Shown: piece by piece, positions 9,373 through 62,380 of the stretch
How positions within the stretch are numbered: the first letter of the stretch is position 1
Layout of the letters: every line of letters begins with the position of its first letter
From: an uncultured Collinsella sp.
GTDB taxonomy: Bacteria > Actinomycetota > Coriobacteriia > Coriobacteriales > Coriobacteriaceae
Assembly: GCA_900757185.1 (NCBI GenBank)
Contig: CAAEMX010000060.1
Span: 72,610-136,609, forward strand
Direction: 5' to 3'
Length of the DNA stretch: 64,000 nt
The notes under the pieces: generated by a model
What the model was told of the DNA's origin: nothing
The model's input: the letters and a program-made list of their open reading frames with translations, nothing else
Databases searched by the model: none
Translations under genes and position numbers: made by a program

Positions 9373-9382
9373 CCACAGAATG

Positions 9383-9444
9383 AGAGTGGATAATCTTCCG
9401 TTTTTGGCCTGCTTTGGGGTTCAAAGTGGGAGATTATCCACTCT
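9383..9444. repeat. Perfect 14-bp inverted repeat with 34-nt loop
   Basis: gagagtggataatc ... gattatccactctc. Confidence 0.8.
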
Positions 9445-9452
9445 CATCATTT

Positions 9453-22702: not shown

Positions 22703-22923
22703 CCGGGGCCCTTCTCAGGCCCCGGGGACGGCATTTTCACAGTTGAAGGAACGGTGGAGATGTGTTTCGATGGGTCAGATTCGTGTCGTTCCGAAAAGAC
22801 CGTGAACCTTTTGTGGGACACGCGGCGCCGTGGTACCATAGCCGAGTTTGTTGTCTTGGTCGGAAACCAAGACGCCTTATGCGCTGATCGGTAACCAGCG
22901 CCTGACCAATAAGGAGTCCTACC

Positions 22924-29674: not shown

Positions 29675-30615
29675 TGGCAGACGTCAAGAAAATCGCCACG
29701 CGTGTAAGCTACGGCGAGGCCCTCGTCGAGCTCGCCAACGAGCACGACGACTTTGTGGTCCTCGACGCCGACCTGGCTGCTGCCACGCAGACCGGCAAGT
29801 TTAAGGCTGCCTGCCCCGATCGCTTCTTCGATGTGGGCATTGCCGAGAGCAACCTGATGGGTGTTGCCGCCGGTATCGCGACCACCGGTCGCGTTGCCTT
29901 TGCGAGCACCTTTGCCATGTTCGCCGCCGGCCGCGCCTTTGAGCAGGTCCGTAACTCCATCGGCTATCCGCACCTTAACGTCAAGATCGGTGCCACGCAC
30001 GCTGGTATCTCGGTGGGCGAGGATGGCGCCACGCACCAGTGCTGCGAGGATATCGCCCTCATGCGCGTCATCCCCGGCATGACCGTGATCGTTCCGGCCG
30101 ACGACGTCGAGGCCCGCGCCGTGACGCGCGCCGCCTATGAGTGCGACGGCCCGGTGTACATGCGCTTCGCTCGTTTGGCCTCGCCGGTTATCAACGACCC
30201 CGAGACCTACAAGTTCGAGTTGGGTAAGGGCATTGTCATGCGCGAGGGCGCCGATGTGACCATCATCGCTTGCGGCCTGATGGTCGGCGAGGCCCTCGAG
30301 GCCGCCGAGCAGCTCGCTGCCGAGGGCATCGACGCCGAGGTCATCAACATGCACACCATCAAGCCCATCGACGCCGACCTGGTCGTCAAGAGCGCTACCA
30401 AGACCGGTCACGTCGTGACCGTCGAGGAGCACTCCGTGATCGGTGGTCTGGGCAGTGCCGTCGCCGACGTCCTGTGCGAGCAGTGCCCGACGCCGCTCAA
30501 GAAGATTGGCGTCAACGACACCTTCGGCGAGTCCGGCCCGGGTGCCGAGCTCCTGCACAAGTACGGCCTGGACGCCGCCAACATCGTGGCGACCACCAAG
30601 GAGTTCTTGGCATAA
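29675..30615 (+). CDS. Transketolase, C-terminal (pyrimidine-binding) subunit
   Basis: MADVKKIATRVSYGEALVEL...GEDGATHQCCEDIALMRVIPGMTV. It begins 2 nt after the N-terminal subunit stop. Confidence 0.88.
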
Positions 30616-30663
30616 GGCAAGACGAGGCAAAGTATCGCGTCGACAACCGCAAACAAGCCAGAA

Positions 30664-30697
30664 CAGGGGCGTCCTCAAAGAGGGCGCCCCTGTTTAT
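30664..30697 (+). terminator. Terminator hairpin after the transketolase genes
   Basis: caggggcgtcc-tcaaagag-ggcgcccctg followed by TTTATG. Confidence 0.55.
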
Positions 30698-30830
30698 GCT
30701 GAATTTAAATTAGAGTCCTGCCAAGCAAAGTTCCCATGGGGAAACGGGCCCATCCCAACAAAGTGCAATTCAGACCCTTCCAACTTTGTATGCGCAGCAT
30801 CTCAAGTTGGTGCGTCGGCCCCATAGTAGC

Positions 30831-30964
30831 CGCAGGCCGGGCGCAGGGTTACCTCCCAAATCTTTCCGCAGCGCAGGCCGGCGTTTGTCCGCAGCTCCGC
30901 AGGAGCAGGACAAATGCCGGCCATGCGCGAGGACGATTTGGGAGGTAACCCTGCGCCCGGCCGG
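30831..30964. repeat. Long nested inverted repeat (27-bp perfect outer arms, 15-bp inner arms)
   Basis: The outer arm gccgggcgcagggttacctcccaaatc (30835-30861) is perfectly complementary to 30936-30962. The inner arm ggccggcgtttgtcc pairs with ggacaaatgccggcc. Confidence 0.85.
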
Positions 30965-31065
30965 TGAGACCCAAACCCCGCCATGCTTCTTATGTGCAGC
31001 AAAGCTAATGCTGCTAAAATACAAAGCGCTCATGTAGTTTAAACGCACGACGATAAGGAGCACCA

Positions 31066-32286
31066 GTGGGTAACCACTTCCGTACCTCCGGTGCGGGCGA
31101 TGATGCCCCCAAGACGCAGACGGGCGTCCAGGGCAGTCGTTTCGCCACTCCGGATTCAGAGGGCCAGCCTGTTGCTCAGGCCCCCGCTCAGCCGGCAGAT
31201 CAGGCACAGCCGGCATCCGATCCCTTTGCCTACAATCCCACCAGCGATGTCGCGCTTTCCGGCACGGCGGGTTTTGAGCCCGTTCAGGCCGTGACCGCTC
31301 GCGTGGAGCAGCCTCAGGCTGGCGCCGCCACGCCGCAGCCTACCATGGCCGGCATTCCCGACCCCATGGCCCCCGCGACGCCGGTTCCTCAGCCTGCGCA
31401 GTCCGGTCTCTTTGCCGCTATTCCCGATCCCACGCAGCCTGCTGCCCCGGTGGTCGAGAGCGATCAGGCCGCCGAGGTCGCAAGCCTCGATAACGCGCTC
31501 AACAACCCCGATTTTACGTCGGTGTTTGCGCCCATCGATCCGCAAGCCAGCCGCAAGAAGATGGCCAAGCAGGCCGGTGTCGAGCCCGTCATCCTTATGG
31601 AGCATGTCACCAAGATCTATCCGGCACAGCCCAACAAGCCTGCACTCGACGACATCAACATCGAGATCTATCCGGGCGAGTTCGTCTTCCTGGTCGGTCA
31701 TTCCGGCTCGGGTAAGACCACGCTGCTGTCGACGCTCAACCGCGACGTCAAGCCGACGAGCGGCCGCATCTTGGTTGCCGGTCAGGACCTCATGAAGATC
31801 AAGAACCGCAAGGTTCCGTTCCTGCGCCGCCAGATTGGCGCCGTGTTCCAGGACTTTAAGCTTCTGCCGCAAAAGACCGCCTACGAAAACGTGGCGTTTG
31901 CCCTGCAGTGCATCGGCAAGCCCAAGGGCGTTATTCGCAGCCAGGTGCCGGAGGTGCTGCGTCTGGTCGGTCTGGCCGATCAGATGGACTCGCTGCCCGA
32001 CCAGCTTTCCGGTGGCGAGCAGCAGCGCGTCGCCGTCGCCCGCGCTATGGTCAACCGTCCGCCGCTGCTGATCTGCGACGAGCCCACGGGTAACCTCGAC
32101 CCGGCGATCTCGCTGGGCATCATGAAGCTGCTCGAGCGTATTAACCGCACCGGCACCACCGTGATCGTCGCCACGCACGACCGCGAGATGGTCGATAGCA
32201 TGCACCGTCGCGTGATCGCCCTCGAGGGCGGCCACGTTATCCGCGACCAGGAGAGGGGAGGTTACGGCAACTATGGCACCAACTAA
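31066..32286 (+). CDS. ftsE: Cell division ATP-binding protein FtsE with about 180-aa Pro/Ala/Gln-rich N-terminal extension (GTG start)
   Basis: Walker A GHSGSGKTTLL, signature LSGGEQQRVAVARA and Walker B LLICDEPTGNLD. An AAGGAG RBS lies 5 nt before GTG. Confidence 0.85.
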   Translation: MGNHFRTSGAGDDAPKTQTGVQGSRFATPDSEGQPVAQAPAQPADQAQPASDPFAYNPTSDVALSGTAGFEPVQAVTARVEQPQAGAATPQPTMAGIPDPMAPATPVPQPAQSGLFAAIPDPTQPAAPVVESDQAAEVASLDNALNNPDFTSVFAPIDPQASRKKMAKQAGVEPVILMEHVTKIYPAQPNKPALDDINIEIYPGEFVFLVGHSGSGKTTLLSTLNRDVKPTSGRILVAGQDLMKIKNRKVPFLRRQIGAVFQDFKLLPQKTAYENVAFALQCIGKPKGVIRSQVPEVLRLVGLADQMDSLPDQLSGGEQQRVAVARAMVNRPPLLICDEPTGNLDPAISLGIMKLLERINRTGTTVIVATHDREMVDSMHRRVIALEGGHVIRDQERGGYGNYGTN

Positions 32287-35585: not shown

Positions 35586-35620
35586 ACCTACCAAAATAAA
35601 CCTGTCCCTTTTTGGCAGGT
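35586..35620. repeat. ACCTGTCCC-loop hairpin (family copy C) immediately upstream of the serine recombinase gene
   Basis: acctaccaaaa-taaACCTGTCCC-ttttggcaggt. Confidence 0.65.
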
Positions 35621-35641
35621 TTACAAGAAAGCGGGGATGAG

Positions 35642-36247
35642 ATGGCGACGGTGTATGGTTATGCGCGGGTGAGTTCGCGCGATCAGAATCTTAATCGGCA
35701 GCTGGATGCGCTGGGCGCCTATGGCGTGGGCTCGGCGAATATTTATGCCGACCATGCGAGCGGCAAGGACTTCGATCGACCGCGCTATCGCGAGCTGCTG
35801 CACGTCCTGGGAGACGGGGACGTGCTGGTGGTGCTTTCTATCGACCGACTTGGTCGTAATTACTCCGAGATTCTTGAGGAATGGCGTCGCATTACCAAGG
35901 AGCTCGGGGTTGCCATTGTGGTGTTGGACATGCCATTGCTTGACACGCGCGCCAGGGCAAGCGGCACGCCGGATGTGACTAATACCCTGATTGCCGATAT
36001 TGTGCTGCAACTGCTGAGCTACGTGGCGCAGGTGGAGCGCGAGAATATCCATCGGCGCCAAGCGGAGGGAATTGCAGCGGCGCGGGCGCGAGGGGTCCGT
36101 TTCGGTCGACCTCGCAAGCCGTGCCCTCCTCAGTTTGATCTGGTACGCGATAGCTATGAGGCGGGCAGTATTACCCGCAGCCAGGCAGCAAAGTGCCTGG
36201 GCGTGTGCGTGGGGACGTTCGATCGCTGGATGCGCGAGGCGGGGTAG
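35642..36247 (+). CDS. Small serine recombinase (resolvase/invertase family)
   Basis: YGYARVSSRDQNLNRQLDAL has the catalytic Ser in the first 10 residues of the resolvase N-domain, followed by a C-terminal HTH (GSITRSQAAKCLGV). Confidence 0.85.
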   Translation: MATVYGYARVSSRDQNLNRQLDALGAYGVGSANIYADHASGKDFDRPRYRELLHVLGDGDVLVVLSIDRLGRNYSEILEEWRRITKELGVAIVVLDMPLLDTRARASGTPDVTNTLIADIVLQLLSYVAQVERENIHRRQAEGIAAARARGVRFGRPRKPCPPQFDLVRDSYEAGSITRSQAAKCLGVCVGTFDRWMREAG

Positions 36248-42209: not shown

Positions 42210-42283
42210 TGGGATGTCGTCTAATGGCAGGACAGCGGATTCTGGTTCCGTCAATGGGGGTTCGACTCCCTCCATCCCAGCCA
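42210..42283 (+). tRNA. tRNA-Gln (anticodon CTG)
   Basis: Cloverleaf: acceptor TGGGATG/CATCCCA, anticodon loop TTCTGGT, T-loop GGGGGTTCGACTCCCTC, discriminator G plus CCA. Confidence 0.85.
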
Positions 42284-42300
42284 TTGCATTTGCTACATAT

Positions 42301-42377
42301 GGCCCGTTCGTCTAGCGGTTTAGGACGCCGCCCTCTCAAGGCGGAGATCACCAGTTCGAATCTGGTACGGGCTACCA
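42301..42377 (+). tRNA. tRNA-Glu (anticodon CTC)
   Basis: Acceptor GGCCCGT/ACGGGCT and a D-arm TCGTCTAGCGGTTTAGGAC typical of tRNA-Glu. The anticodon loop is CTCTCAA, the T-arm ACCAGTTCGAATCTGGT, and the 3' end is ACCA. Confidence 0.85.
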
Positions 42378-44940: not shown

Positions 44941-45080
44941 GTCTTAACCTGCCACATCTAACGGTGGAAATTGGGCCCACTTGTTACATATCGAGACAAA
45001 CCAAAACCGTCCGGCAGAAGATCTCAATCTGTAACATCTAGACATCGAAAGCGGGTCTAGATGTTACAGATCGAGACGTT
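44941..45080. repeat. REPIN/MITE-like palindromic repeat array 1 (2 units; first unit degenerate)
   Basis: The arm GTCTCGATCTGTAACA faces TGTTACAGATCGAGAC around the core ggaaattgggcc. Confidence 0.85.
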
Positions 45081-47348: not shown

Positions 47349-47570
47349 GTCTCGATCTGTAACAACTAGGGATGGAAATTGGGCCTAGGTGTTACAGATC
47401 GAGACAGGAAGAAATGGTCCTATGGAAAATCTCGATCTGTAACAGTTAGCTGCAAAAACCGGCCCTTCATGTTACAGATTGAGACATTTGGAACCGTCTC
47501 TCGAAAACATCTCAATCTGTAACAGTTAGTCGTCGAAATTGGGTCTTACTGTTACAGATTGAGATGTTTG
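47349..47570. repeat. REPIN/MITE-like palindromic repeat array 2 (3 units)
   Basis: Same arms as array 1, with cores ggaaattgggcc / aaaaccggccc / cgaaattgggtc. Confidence 0.85.
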
Positions 47571-55035: not shown

Positions 55036-55258
55036 GTCTCGATCTGTAACGTTTGGGGACAAAAACCAGTCTATCTGTTACAGACCGAGACGAATGCTTG
55101 GGCGCCGCTGGTTTGTCTAAATCTGTAACGTTTAGGGGCCTGGAGAACGTCTTACTGTTACAGATCGAGACGTTTGGCACCTGGCTGGGGGGGGATGTCT
55201 CAATCTGTAACATCTACAGTCCAAAAATCGGTCTTCCTGTTACAGGTCGAAACGTTTG
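55036..55258. repeat. REPIN/MITE-like palindromic repeat array 3 (3 units), abutting the DUF559 gene start
   Basis: Arms gtctcgatctgtaac / tgttacagaccgagac, with cores acaaaaaccagtc / ccaaaaatcggtc. Confidence 0.85.
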
Positions 55259-56357: not shown

Positions 56358-56496
56358 TGTCTCGATCTGTAACGTTTTGAGGCTGTTTGAGCTCGTAATT
56401 GTTACAGATCGAGACAAGCCGGTGAAACGTCGACCGAATGTCTCGATCTGTAACATCAGGGGGCCCAATAACCCTGTACCTGTTATAGATCGAGAG
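56358..56496. repeat. REPIN/MITE-like palindromic repeat array 4 (2 units), starting 8 bp after the DUF559 stop
   Basis: Arms gtctcgatctgtaac / tgttacagatcgagac; the second unit is more degenerate. Confidence 0.85.
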
Positions 56497-61919: not shown

Positions 61920-62380
61920 ATCTCGATCTGTAACATCTGGACCGGTTTTTCAACCATAGCTGTTACAGATTTAGACAAACATTTCAGCCGAAAACTAACG
62001 TCTCGATCTGTAACAACTAGACCCCGTTTTACCGAGTATTTGTTACAGATCGAGACAAACAGTTGGCAGGAAACTTAATGTCTCGATCTGTAACATCTAG
62101 CAGCAAATATGACCTCTAACTGTTACAGATCGAGATTTTGTTTTGCGAGGTTTGAGTTTGTCTCAATCTGTAACAGTTAGACCGGTTTTTGGATTCCAGA
62201 TGTTACAGATCGAGACGAACCTTCAGCAATAAACTTAATGTCTCAATCTGTAACATCTGGAGCCGATTTTGCCGAGTTACTGTTACAAATCAAGACAAAC
62301 CGTCCGACGATGACTCAATATCTCGATCTGTAACATCTAGCCCCAGTTTTGCCGAGTAGATGTTACAGATCGAGACAAAC
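61920..62380. repeat. REPIN/MITE-like palindromic repeat array 5 (6 units, period about 80 bp)
   Basis: Six F arms (atctcgatctgtaaca) alternate with six R arms (tgttacagatcgagac). The cores are accggtttttc / ccccgttttaccgag / agccgattttgccgag, and the linkers have the form aaac...aaacttaatg. Confidence 0.9.

What the first reader, a model, noticed from the sequence alone, without database searches (positions are those of the whole stretch)
30831..30964. 134-bp nested perfect inverted repeat upstream of ftsE
The outer arms are a 27-bp perfect complement (gccgggcgcagggttacctcccaaatc). Inside is a 15-bp inner inverted repeat with one mismatch, then a further small palindrome (tgtccgcag...ctgcggaca-like).

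This would form a long cruciform or an extremely stable RNA hairpin in the intercistronic region between the transketolase terminator and ftsE. It is not a simple terminator, having no U-tract.

The outer arm would encode ...GYLPNLS... in both directions in the ORF track, which is an artefact of the palindrome. Candidates are a MITE, an sRNA, or an RNase III processing/regulatory hairpin for ftsEX.
Basis: seen in the sequence. Interest (0 to 1): 0.55.

Follow-up and report, generated by a model that had tools for sequence, protein, structure and literature searches.

The report
Conserved hairpin repeat upstream of ftsE
The palindrome is real and conserved, but it is one unusually placed copy of a small, undescribed family of long hairpin repeats in the gut bacterium Collinsella that normally sit just after the ends of genes, so it is probably not a control element specific to ftsEX.

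Summary
The arms are 28 nt and perfect (30835-30862 / 30935-30962), with a nested 15-nt repeat and an apical stem. The RNA fold is -121 kcal/mol (z = -15).

The organism is Collinsella (aerofaciens group). The element (T1) is single-copy in the window and sits at this same site in more than 170 assemblies.

It belongs to a family found at seven or more chromosomal sites. All copies share an invariant asymmetric core (TCCGCAG ... CGAGGAC). Inner hairpins come in two interchangeable types. Arms differ between sites but are self-complementary at each site (46 pairs, 25 with compensatory changes). No Rfam family matches.

Six sites start 8-26 nt after a gene's stop codon, always in one polarity. 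T1 is the exception. It has the opposite polarity, and no gene ends next to it. It ends about 50 nt upstream of a conserved ftsE -10 box, so it probably lies outside the ftsEX transcript. Species with FtsX 89% identical or less lack it.

T1 is nevertheless constrained: pi is 0.005 against 0.06-0.12 at 4-fold sites.

Best reading: a REP/ERIC-like transcribed 3'-end hairpin family. T1 would be a barrier between tkt and ftsEX. A MITE relic or a recombination site remains possible. Interest is moderate.

The parts
30820..30834 (+). Tail flank (CCCATAGTAGCCGCA). This is an unpaired flank whose (T)AGT(T/A)(A/G)CCGCA motif is shared with paralogs T2, T5 and T7.
   Evidence: Paralog alignments. The covariance-model match spans 30820-30975.
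30835..30862 (+). Left arm, 28 nt: GGCCGGGCGCAGGGTTACCTCCCAAATC.
   Evidence: Perfect complement of 30935-30962. Compensatory variants occur in other genomes.
30863..30871 (+). 5' junction TTTCCGCAG. The TCCGCAG part is invariant across the family and forms an asymmetric internal loop.
   Evidence: Intact in 106 of 107 complete T1 copies found by the arm-based scan. Retained in the diverged paralogs T5, T6, T7 and the L126 copy.
30872..30927 (+). Inner hairpin, class A. It contains the 15-nt inverted repeat 30876-30890 / 30908-30922 and the apical stem-loop CTCC-GCA-GGAG. In other genomes it is replaced by an unrelated class-B hairpin.
   Evidence: A-like interiors with covarying stems occur at the thrB site (T4) and at T7. 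pi = 0.005.
30928..30934 (+). 3' junction CGAGGAC, invariant across the family.
   Evidence: No segregating sites among 49 class-A genomes.
30935..30962 (+). Right arm, 28 nt: GATTTGGGAGGTAACCCTGCGCCCGGCC.
30963..30975 (+). Head flank (GGTGAGACCCAAA). The G(G/A)TGAGA motif is shared with T2 and with the copy at L188:501-645. At the other sites a gene's stop codon follows here, but not at T1.
30662..30694 (+). Context: the canonical intrinsic terminator of the transketolase operon, a 15-bp stem followed by TTTAT. It is separate from the element.
31012..31020 (+). Context: inferred extended -10 box of ftsE (TGcTAAAAT). It lies in a block (30977-31065) that is conserved even in species lacking the hairpin.
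   Evidence: Alignment of hairpin-less relatives L121, L123, L124 and L126. The promoter scanner found no full -35/-10 match, so this is an inference.

Best explanation
**What it is.** The palindrome (T1) is one copy of a family of hairpin repeats of roughly 115-160 bp found in Collinsella and related Coriobacteriaceae. The family is not in Rfam 15 and I found no description of it in the searchable literature.

Every copy has the same build:
- a tail flank;
- a long arm;
- the invariant motif (A/T)TCCGCAG;
- an inner hairpin of one of two interchangeable types (A or B), usually capped by a C-GNA-G loop;
- the invariant motif CGAGGAC;
- the complementary arm;
- a head flank.

The arms and inner stems differ between sites but pair perfectly at each site.

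**How the family most likely works (inferred).** At six of seven sites the element begins 8-26 nt after a stop codon, always in the same polarity relative to that gene. The genes are pfk, thrB, grcA, a P-type ATPase, a 394-aa gene, and ftsX in a distant species. The family therefore most likely acts as a transcribed 3'-end structure. It would be a U-tract-less termination or pause hairpin and a barrier to 3'-to-5' exonucleases, as described for REP, BIME and ERIC elements. The conserved asymmetric internal loop would be a protein recognition site.

**How T1 fits (inferred).** T1 is the atypical member. It has the reverse polarity, no gene ends beside it, and it lies between the tkt terminator and the ftsE promoter, ending about 50 nt upstream of the conserved -10 box. 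Because the hairpin is nearly symmetric, it can fold in either orientation. At this site it most likely acts as a roadblock or processing site for transcripts reading through from upstream, insulating the ftsEX promoter.

**Shown:** the anatomy, family membership, covariation, gene-end association, constraint on T1, and absence of T1 from more distant relatives.

**Inferred:** transcription of the element, a terminator or stabiliser activity, the insulator role, and maintenance of perfect symmetry by templated repair or recombination between the arms.
For: - **Structure and stability:**
- **Fixed site:** all 120 genome loci found with the arm sequence lie at the ftsE site.
- **Family:** a metagenome scan with the junction motifs gave 62 copies at the ftsE locus and 58 copies elsewhere.
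- **Covariation:** on alignment A1, 97.6% of cells pair, 25 of 46 pairs show compensatory changes, and the covariation score is 0.438 against 0.139 for shuffles (0 of 500 reach it) and 0.06-0.12 for slid controls.
- **Model validation:** covariance model R1 scores the unseen copies T5 and T6 at 103-115 bits. T1 scores 150 bits on + against 65 on -.
- **Gene-end association and polarity:**. T6 is flipped on the chromosome yet keeps its polarity relative to its gene.
- **Constraint on T1:** interior pi is 0.005, against 0.056-0.125 at 4-fold sites and 0.027 in the adjacent spacer.
- **T1 lies outside the ftsEX transcript:** the conserved extended -10 box and 5'-UTR block lie downstream of it and are present in relatives that lack the hairpin.
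Against: - No copy is followed by a U-tract, so the elements are not canonical intrinsic terminators.
- T1 has the opposite polarity to the other sites, and the asymmetric motifs would read differently in a tkt read-through transcript.
- tkt already has its own canonical terminator.
- In class-B genomes a divergently transcribed zinc-ribbon gene lies to the left of T1, so there is no obvious read-through to stop there.
- Single-arm transitions that would give G.U on the + strand and on the - strand are about equally frequent. Nothing singles out an RNA strand, and the data fit DNA-level symmetry equally well.
- Two genomes have lost the left arm and interior, so T1 is dispensable.
- No expression data were available.
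- With seven sites, 6:1 polarity alone is not statistically significant. The argument rests on the proximity to stop codons.
Confidence: 0.45

Rival explanations
1. T1 is a relic or domesticated copy of a non-autonomous mobile element (MITE-like or REPIN-like). It was inserted upstream of ftsE in the ancestor of the aerofaciens group. Its conservation would reflect self-correction of the palindrome and gene conversion with paralogs, not a function at this site.
For: - The family is multi-copy, all copies are intergenic, and all have long terminal inverted repeats.
- T1 is absent from species with FtsX 89% identical or less, although the surrounding promoter block is conserved there.
- The site to its left is an insertion hot spot: a zinc-ribbon gene in some genomes and two IS21 copies in L127.
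- T1 carries the family's tail and head flanks although no gene ends beside it.
- Arm variants behave as if the two arms are homogenised.
Against: - No target-site duplication is visible.
- The arms differ between copies while the core is conserved, the reverse of the usual MITE pattern.
- Each copy sits at a fixed orthologous site in hundreds of assemblies, with no sign of recent transposition.
- No match was found in phage or viral collections. The only plasmid-collection matches to the T1 query and to the T3, T5, T6 and T4 (thrB-site) paralog queries lie in one 0.9-Mb Collinsella aerofaciens replicon; the T2 query gave one extra marginal partial hit.
- Diversity is 10-25 times lower than at neighbouring 4-fold sites. 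Neutral self-correction does not explain that.
- No partner transposase was identified, but this was not testable here.
Confidence: 0.25
2. The elements act at the DNA level as recombination sites. The 28-bp inverted arms would let the 72-bp interior flip, as in an inverton. Recombination between paralogs would invert or reshuffle large chromosome segments, possibly through the small serine recombinase encoded 4.6 kb downstream at 35612-36247.
For: - The interior is precisely reverse-complemented relative to the flanks in L082, and probably also in L136, whose far flank could not be typed.
- Hybrid junctions join the ftsE flank to the pfk flank (L129, L239). Other T1/T2/T3 hybrids occur in L119, L196 and L233.
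- A resolvase-family gene lies nearby.
- Interior types A and B swap between sites and do not follow the phylogeny of the flanks.
Against: - Flips are rare. Forward against inverted was 106:1 in the genome-scan loci and 60:2 in the metagenome loci, and one of those two (L129) proved to be a hybrid junction. That leaves 1-2 true flips among about 170 copies.
- All non-canonical junctions come from short-read assemblies. A repeat of about 130 nt with 28-nt inverted arms can produce such artefacts, and fold-back contigs were also seen.
- A 72-bp segment is very short for synapsis by an invertase.
- No promoter-like site lies inside it.
- The arms lack the internal dyad symmetry expected of invertase sites (read directly from the sequence).
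- The recombinase gene is also present in L121, which lacks T1, and is absent near T2, T3, T5 and T6.
Confidence: 0.12
3. T1 is a cis-acting element of ftsEX. One version is a 5'-leader hairpin processed by RNase III. The other is a DNA structure or protein-binding site upstream of the promoter that modulates ftsEX transcription.
For: - It lies directly upstream of ftsE and is constrained about as strongly as the promoter/5'-UTR block.
- A paired region of about 60 bp would be an RNase III substrate if it is transcribed (the substrate requirement is established knowledge).
- Its position, roughly -60 to -190 from the inferred transcription start, is where upstream activating sites usually lie.
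Against: - The conserved extended -10 box lies downstream of the hairpin, so the ftsEX transcript probably does not include it.
- Relatives express ftsEX from the same block without the hairpin.
- The same element follows the stop codons of unrelated metabolic genes.
- Two genomes have deleted half of it.
Confidence: 0.13

Closest known systems
REP/BIME and REPIN elements (repetitive extragenic palindromes of proteobacteria)
   Same: They are intergenic, hairpin-forming and repeated, and often lie at the 3' ends of genes or between convergent genes. Their described roles are stabilising upstream mRNA against 3' exonucleases and acting as recombination substrates. A REPIN is a long hairpin built from two inverted units.
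   Different: REPs are units of 20-40 nt present in tens to hundreds of copies, with a conserved GTAG end, and are mobilised by RAYT transposases. This family is roughly 115-160 nt, was seen at about seven sites, and has a conserved asymmetric internal core with arms that vary between sites. There is no consistent GTAG, and no RAYT was identified (not testable here).
ERIC/IRU elements of enterobacteria and Correia elements of Neisseria (palindromic MITE-like repeats)
   Same: They are imperfect palindromes of about 100-155 bp in transcribed intergenic regions. They are co-transcribed with neighbouring genes. The long RNA hairpins affect mRNA stability, and RNase III processing has been described for Correia elements.
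   Different: There is no sequence similarity. Correia elements have conserved 26-bp terminal repeats, a TA target duplication and hundreds of copies. This family has variable arms, no duplication, low copy number and fixed orthologous positions.
Intrinsic terminators, including the U-tract-less 'I-shaped' hairpins proposed for Actinobacteria
   Same: A GC-rich hairpin placed a few to about 25 nt after a stop codon.
   Different: There is no U-tract. The stems are very long (about 60 bp). An invariant sequence motif is shared across unrelated genes. T1 itself does not follow a gene directly, and tkt has its own canonical terminator.
Invertons (invertible promoters flanked by inverted repeats)
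   Same: Inverted repeats flank a short segment, both orientations appear in assemblies, and a recombinase gene lies within 5 kb.
   Different: The segment is only 72 bp and holds no promoter. One orientation accounts for about 98% of copies. The recombinase is not specifically linked to the element.

Membership tests
Any Rfam 15 RNA family | Match to a covariance model at or above its gathering score | tested here: not met
   Only sub-threshold hits to hairpin-shaped miRNA models were found for T1, T2 and T6. The gathering-threshold scan of the whole window returned only two tRNAs and the L31-Coriobacteria leader.
MITE | Terminal inverted repeats conserved among copies | tested here: not met
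   Each copy has perfect inverted arms, but the arm sequences differ between sites. The conserved part is the internal core.
MITE | Target-site duplication flanking the element | tested here: not met
   No direct repeat flanks T1-T7. The flanks are family-conserved, non-complementary tail and head motifs.
MITE | Many dispersed copies with insertion polymorphism between close relatives | tested here: inconclusive
   The family occupies seven or more sites, and at least 5 copies were located in one 0.9-Mb replicon. T1 is absent in more distant species, but every copy is at a fixed orthologous site in the assemblies sampled. No whole-genome census was possible.
REP/REPIN | Short (20-40 nt) imperfect palindromic unit with a conserved 5' GTAG, high copy number and an associated RAYT transposase | tested here: inconclusive
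   The length (roughly 115-160 nt), copy number and lack of a consistent GTAG do not fit. Presence of a RAYT gene could not be tested with these tools.
Canonical intrinsic terminator | GC-rich hairpin immediately followed by a U-tract | tested here: not met
   The hairpin is present, but no U-tract follows T1 or the paralogs in either sense.
Inverton | Both orientations co-occur at appreciable frequency | tested here: inconclusive
   Forward against inverted was 106:1 in the genome-scan loci and 60:2 in the metagenome loci. After flank typing, only 1-2 of these are true local flips. They come from short-read assemblies, so an artefact is not excluded. Read-level data are needed.
Inverton | The invertible segment carries a promoter or a coding switch | tested here: not met
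   No promoter-like site was found in 30550-31150 on either strand. The interior is itself a near-palindrome, so flipping changes little.
RNase III substrate | About 20 bp or more of continuous double-stranded RNA within a transcript | tested here: inconclusive
   The predicted fold has a perfect 28-bp helix plus further stems. Whether the region is transcribed could not be tested.

The most novel reading that the evidence does not exclude
The family could be a new class of structured nucleic-acid element in Coriobacteriia. It would be a rod-like hairpin whose invariant asymmetric internal loop (gene sense: GUCCUCG ... CUGCGGA) is read by a dedicated protein.

One version is a new 3'-UTR RNA module that sets mRNA ends or decay for central-metabolism genes. 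The other is a DNA hairpin site for a recombinase or HUH-type enzyme that drives local flips, swapping of the A and B interior cassettes, and large chromosomal inversions. In either version the ftsE copy would couple the cell-division operon to that system.
Probability: 0.2. Interest if true: 0.65.

Novelty: new member of a known kind. Interest (0 to 1): 0.42.

Why it matters
Collinsella is an abundant human gut genus with almost no experimentally studied gene regulation.

If these hairpins define mRNA 3' ends without U-tracts, they would be a concrete, testable example of how termination or 3'-end protection works in Coriobacteriia. They would also supply a conserved protein-recognition motif to search with.

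The family matters for genomics too. A palindromic repeat of about 130 nt at seven or more sites breaks assemblies or produces hybrid junctions. If those junctions are real, the repeats mark hot spots of chromosomal inversion.

For the ftsEX operon itself the result is mostly negative. The hairpin is probably not part of the ftsEX transcript.

Tried and rejected
- **Dispersed copies of the exact arm.** All 120 genome hits were at the ftsE locus, which at first suggested a single-copy element. The junction-based metagenome scan overturned that view.
- **Rfam.** Nothing was found for T1, T2 or T6.
- **Mobile-element collections.** There were no hits in viral contigs or phages. Every full-length plasmid-collection hit lies in one 0.9-Mb C. 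aerofaciens replicon labelled as a plasmid; the only other hit was a marginal 39-nt match in an Embleya record.
- **Empty-site test for T1.** The upstream region of L121 is too diverged to define insertion boundaries.
- **Empty-site test for T2.** The pfk 3' regions of C. intestinalis and two other species carry different, non-alignable long hairpins. I could not decide between insertion into a pre-existing terminator and outward growth of the palindrome.
- **Strand of action from G.U against A.C mismatches.** The counts are about equal, so this is uninformative.
- **Link to the nearby serine recombinase.** Rejected as specific, because the gene is also present in hairpin-less L121 and absent near the other copies.
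- **Motifs considered by eye and dropped.** A DnaA-box-like TTGTCCGCA occurs only in class-A interiors. An SD/anti-SD resemblance in the arms has no start codon at a usable distance.
- **Literature.** Searches for Collinsella with 'inverton', and with palindromic, intergenic and repeat, found no description of this element. The human-microbiome structured-RNA catalogue (PMC8040213) lists palindromic candidates, but the core sequence is not in its held supplements.

Full report
**1. Observation**

The inverted repeat exists as described. The arms are 30835-30862 and 30935-30962: 28 nt, perfectly complementary and 72 nt apart. Inside lie a 15-nt repeat with one mismatch (30876-30890 / 30908-30922) and a small apical stem-loop.

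The arm has no other match in the 64-kb window even with three mismatches, and no shuffle produced one. As RNA the region folds into an almost continuous hairpin of about 60 bp: -121.4 kcal/mol on + (z = -15) and -116.6 on - (z = -13). No U-tract follows.

The gene order is prfB, a YitT-family gene, the two transketolase subunits, the hairpin, ftsE (406 aa), ftsX, an RNase R-like gene, and a small serine recombinase. The transketolase operon has its own canonical terminator at 30662-30694.

**2. Organism and conservation at this locus**

All are Collinsella, and all have the ftsE flank directly beside the element. The arm sequence is therefore specific to one chromosomal site and is not dispersed.

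Two allele classes share the arms and the junctions TTTCCGCAG and CGAGGAC but carry unrelated inner hairpins. Class A is the one in the window; class B is the other. The classes do not follow the identity of the ftsE flank or the presence of an extra zinc-ribbon gene to the left, so they have been recombined among lineages. Two genomes have deleted the left arm and interior.

That scan required one exact arm, so arm invariance in that data set is partly built in. A strain it missed (L127) has both arms changed together: GGCCGGACACAGGG ... CCCTGTGTCCGGCC.

Within 49 class-A genomes, the interior was not used for ascertainment. Its nucleotide diversity is 0.005. The comparison values are 0.125 and 0.056 at 4-fold degenerate sites of tkt and ftsE, 0.027 in the spacer just upstream, and 0.018 in the ftsE promoter/5'-UTR block. 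T1 is therefore under constraint, or is being kept uniform by some other strong process.

**3. Limits of distribution**

Loci from relatives were found through FtsX homologues at 89, 79, 77 and 75% identity. They have no hairpin upstream of ftsE. They do keep the block that follows the hairpin in the window.

That block includes a TGnTAnnAT extended -10 box at a fixed distance from a conserved 5'-UTR and Shine-Dalgarno sequence. In the window this is TGcTAAAAT at 31012-31020, with the GTG start at 31066. T1 therefore ends about 50 nt upstream of the -10 box, so it is most likely outside the ftsEX transcript. This is an inference; the simple promoter scanner found no full -35/-10 match.

**4. 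The element belongs to a family**

I scanned metagenome contigs with only the two junction motifs, leaving arms, interior and orientation free. 62 lay at the ftsE site and 58 elsewhere. Because this scan required exact junctions, junction invariance in that set is built in.

Independent support comes from two sources. Junctions were intact in 106 of 107 complete copies found through the arm. The motifs TCCGCAG and CGAGGAC also survive in diverged paralogs found with looser searches and with a covariance model.

The sites are:
- **T1:** upstream of ftsE.
- **T2:** after pfk.
- **T3/T4:** after thrB, with B-like and A-like interiors respectively.
- **T5:** after a P-type ATPase.
- **T6:** after grcA of the pflB-grcA operon.
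- **T7:** after a 394-aa gene.
- **L126 copy:** a compact copy right after ftsX in a distant species.

At least five copies were located in one 0.9-Mb C. aerofaciens replicon.

On a 27-sequence alignment of T1-T4, 97.6% of cells pair. 25 of 46 pairs show changes on both sides. The covariation score is 0.438, against 0.139 for shuffles (0 of 500 reach it) and 0.06-0.12 when the partners are slid.

Covariance model R1 built from that alignment scores the unseen T5 and T6 copies at 103-115 bits. In the window it finds only T1, at 150 bits on + against 65 on -, so the element has a clear polarity. No Rfam family matches T1, T2 or T6.

**5. Context of the family**

Write the element with TCCGCAG on the left. 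A gene on the opposite strand then ends 8-26 nt to the right at T2, T3, T5, T6, T7 and the L126 copy.

T6 is flipped on the chromosome relative to the others yet keeps the same polarity relative to its gene. The polarity is therefore tied to the gene and not to the replication direction.

In gene sense the layout is: stop codon, about 20 nt, arm, GUCCUCG, inner hairpin, CUGCGGAA, arm, and often UGCGGUAAC. At T2, T3 and T6 an additional locus-specific outer inverted repeat pairs the last codons and stop codon with sequence beyond the element. I could not tell whether this is a pre-existing terminator stem into which the element was inserted or outward growth of the palindrome. The pfk 3' regions of other species carry different long hairpins and do not align.

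None of the copies has a U-tract.

**6. T1 is the exception**

T1 carries the family's tail and head flanks, but no gene ends beside it. Its polarity is opposite to that of the flanking + strand genes. In class-B genomes it lies between divergently transcribed genes.

**7. Rearrangements**

- The interior is precisely inverted relative to the flanks in L082, and probably in L136.
- Two contigs join the reversed ftsE flank to the pfk flank through a hybrid element (L129, L239).
- Three others join T1/T2 or T2/T3 flanks (L119, L196, L233).
- Several contigs end or fold back inside the element.

These are a few per cent of copies and all come from short-read assemblies. They may be real recombination at the repeats or assembly artefacts.

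**8. Interpretation**

The proximity to stop codons, the fixed polarity, the covarying stems and the invariant asymmetric loop point to a transcribed 3'-end hairpin family. It would be functionally comparable to REP, BIME or ERIC elements, serving as an exonuclease barrier or U-tract-less termination site with a protein-recognised core.

For T1 the best-supported role is an orientation-tolerant barrier or processing site between the tkt operon and the ftsEX promoter. Its constraint argues against pure junk.

I give this 0.45. The reasons for not going higher are that there is no expression evidence, T1 has the wrong polarity, tkt already has a terminator, and G.U against A.C mismatch counts do not single out an RNA strand.

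The perfect symmetry of every copy, with many compensatory changes among very close relatives, is more easily explained by templated correction or recombination between the arms than by two-step RNA compensation. This is an inference based on the known behaviour of quasi-palindromes.

The rivals are:
- a MITE/REPIN-like relic (0.25);
- a cis element of ftsEX (0.13);
- a DNA recombination site or inverton (0.12).

**9. Novelty**

I found no description of the family in Rfam 15 or in the searchable literature. It is best filed as a new member of the broad kind 'intergenic palindromic repeat / 3'-end hairpin'. It has unusual features: low copy number, a conserved core with variable arms, and two interchangeable inner cassettes.

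It fails the defining tests for MITE, canonical terminator and inverton. It could not be fully tested as a REP/REPIN.

Noticed in passing
window 44982-45076, 47350-47565, 55037-55252, 56360-56495, 61921-62375: A different and truly multi-copy repeat. There are 30 copies (2 mismatches or fewer) of TGTTACAGATCGAGA in alternating orientation with a period of about 40 nt, forming five arrays of tandem hairpins that look like REP/BIME arrays. It is unrelated in sequence to the ftsE hairpin.
   Followed up: partly
window 35612-36247 (+): A small serine recombinase (Resolvase domain plus C-terminal HTH, 211 aa) sits between the RNase R-like gene and an RpiR/SIS regulator. The same gene is present in L127 and in L121, which lacks the hairpin. 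It is absent from more distant relatives, where a TPR gene and smpB follow rnr.
   Followed up: partly
window 30977-31065: The ftsE promoter/5'-UTR block is nearly invariant and is conserved down to species with 75% FtsX identity. It contains an extended -10 box TGcTAAAAT (31012-31020), a conserved GCGCTCATGTAGTTTAAACGC segment and the Shine-Dalgarno sequence AAGGAG (31055-31060). A 19-codon ORF starting at 30982 overlaps it.
   Followed up: partly
window 31066-32286: FtsE is 406 aa. It has an N-terminal extension of roughly 175-190 aa, rich in Ala, Pro, Gln and Gly, ahead of the ABC ATPase domain, which Pfam places from residue 194.
   Followed up: no
L003, L012, L033, L121 and other class-B loci, between tkt and the hairpin: A variable insertion site lies to the left of the hairpin. 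Many genomes carry a minus-strand zinc-ribbon/transmembrane protein of 268-480 aa there. Strain TSDC17.2-1.1 (L127) carries two IS21 copies. The window lacks both but keeps about 110 nt of the shared upstream spacer.
   Followed up: partly
L129, L239, L196, L119, L233, L082, L136; L018, L053, L146, L242: Hybrid junctions join the flanks of different paralogs, for example the reversed ftsE flank joined to the pfk flank, which would imply an inversion of about 250 kb. There are also local interior flips, and contigs that fold back or end inside the element. These are either real rearrangements at the repeats or short-read assembly artefacts.
   Followed up: partly
L126 5952-6069 (-): In a distant relative (FtsX 75% identical) a compact member of the same family lies immediately after the ftsX stop codon. 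It keeps TCCGCAG ... CGAGGAC with a short inner hairpin and scores 31 bits. The ftsEX operon therefore carries a family member at its 3' end in that species, whereas the window carries one upstream.
   Followed up: partly
window 22881-22916; 42210-42280; 42301-42374; 9380-9447: Rfam gathering-threshold hits are the L31-Coriobacteria ribosomal-protein leader and two tRNAs. There is also an unrelated AT-richer hairpin with 25-nt arms at 9380-9447; it scores only 22 bits with the family model.
   Followed up: no
L252-L254 (pfk 3' regions of other Collinsella species): Other species carry different, very long GC-rich hairpins after pfk, for example a stem of about 35 bp in L253. C. intestinalis has a CCGCAGGAC...GTCCTGCGG hairpin followed by a U-rich run. 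Long 3' hairpins may be a general habit of the genus.
   Followed up: no
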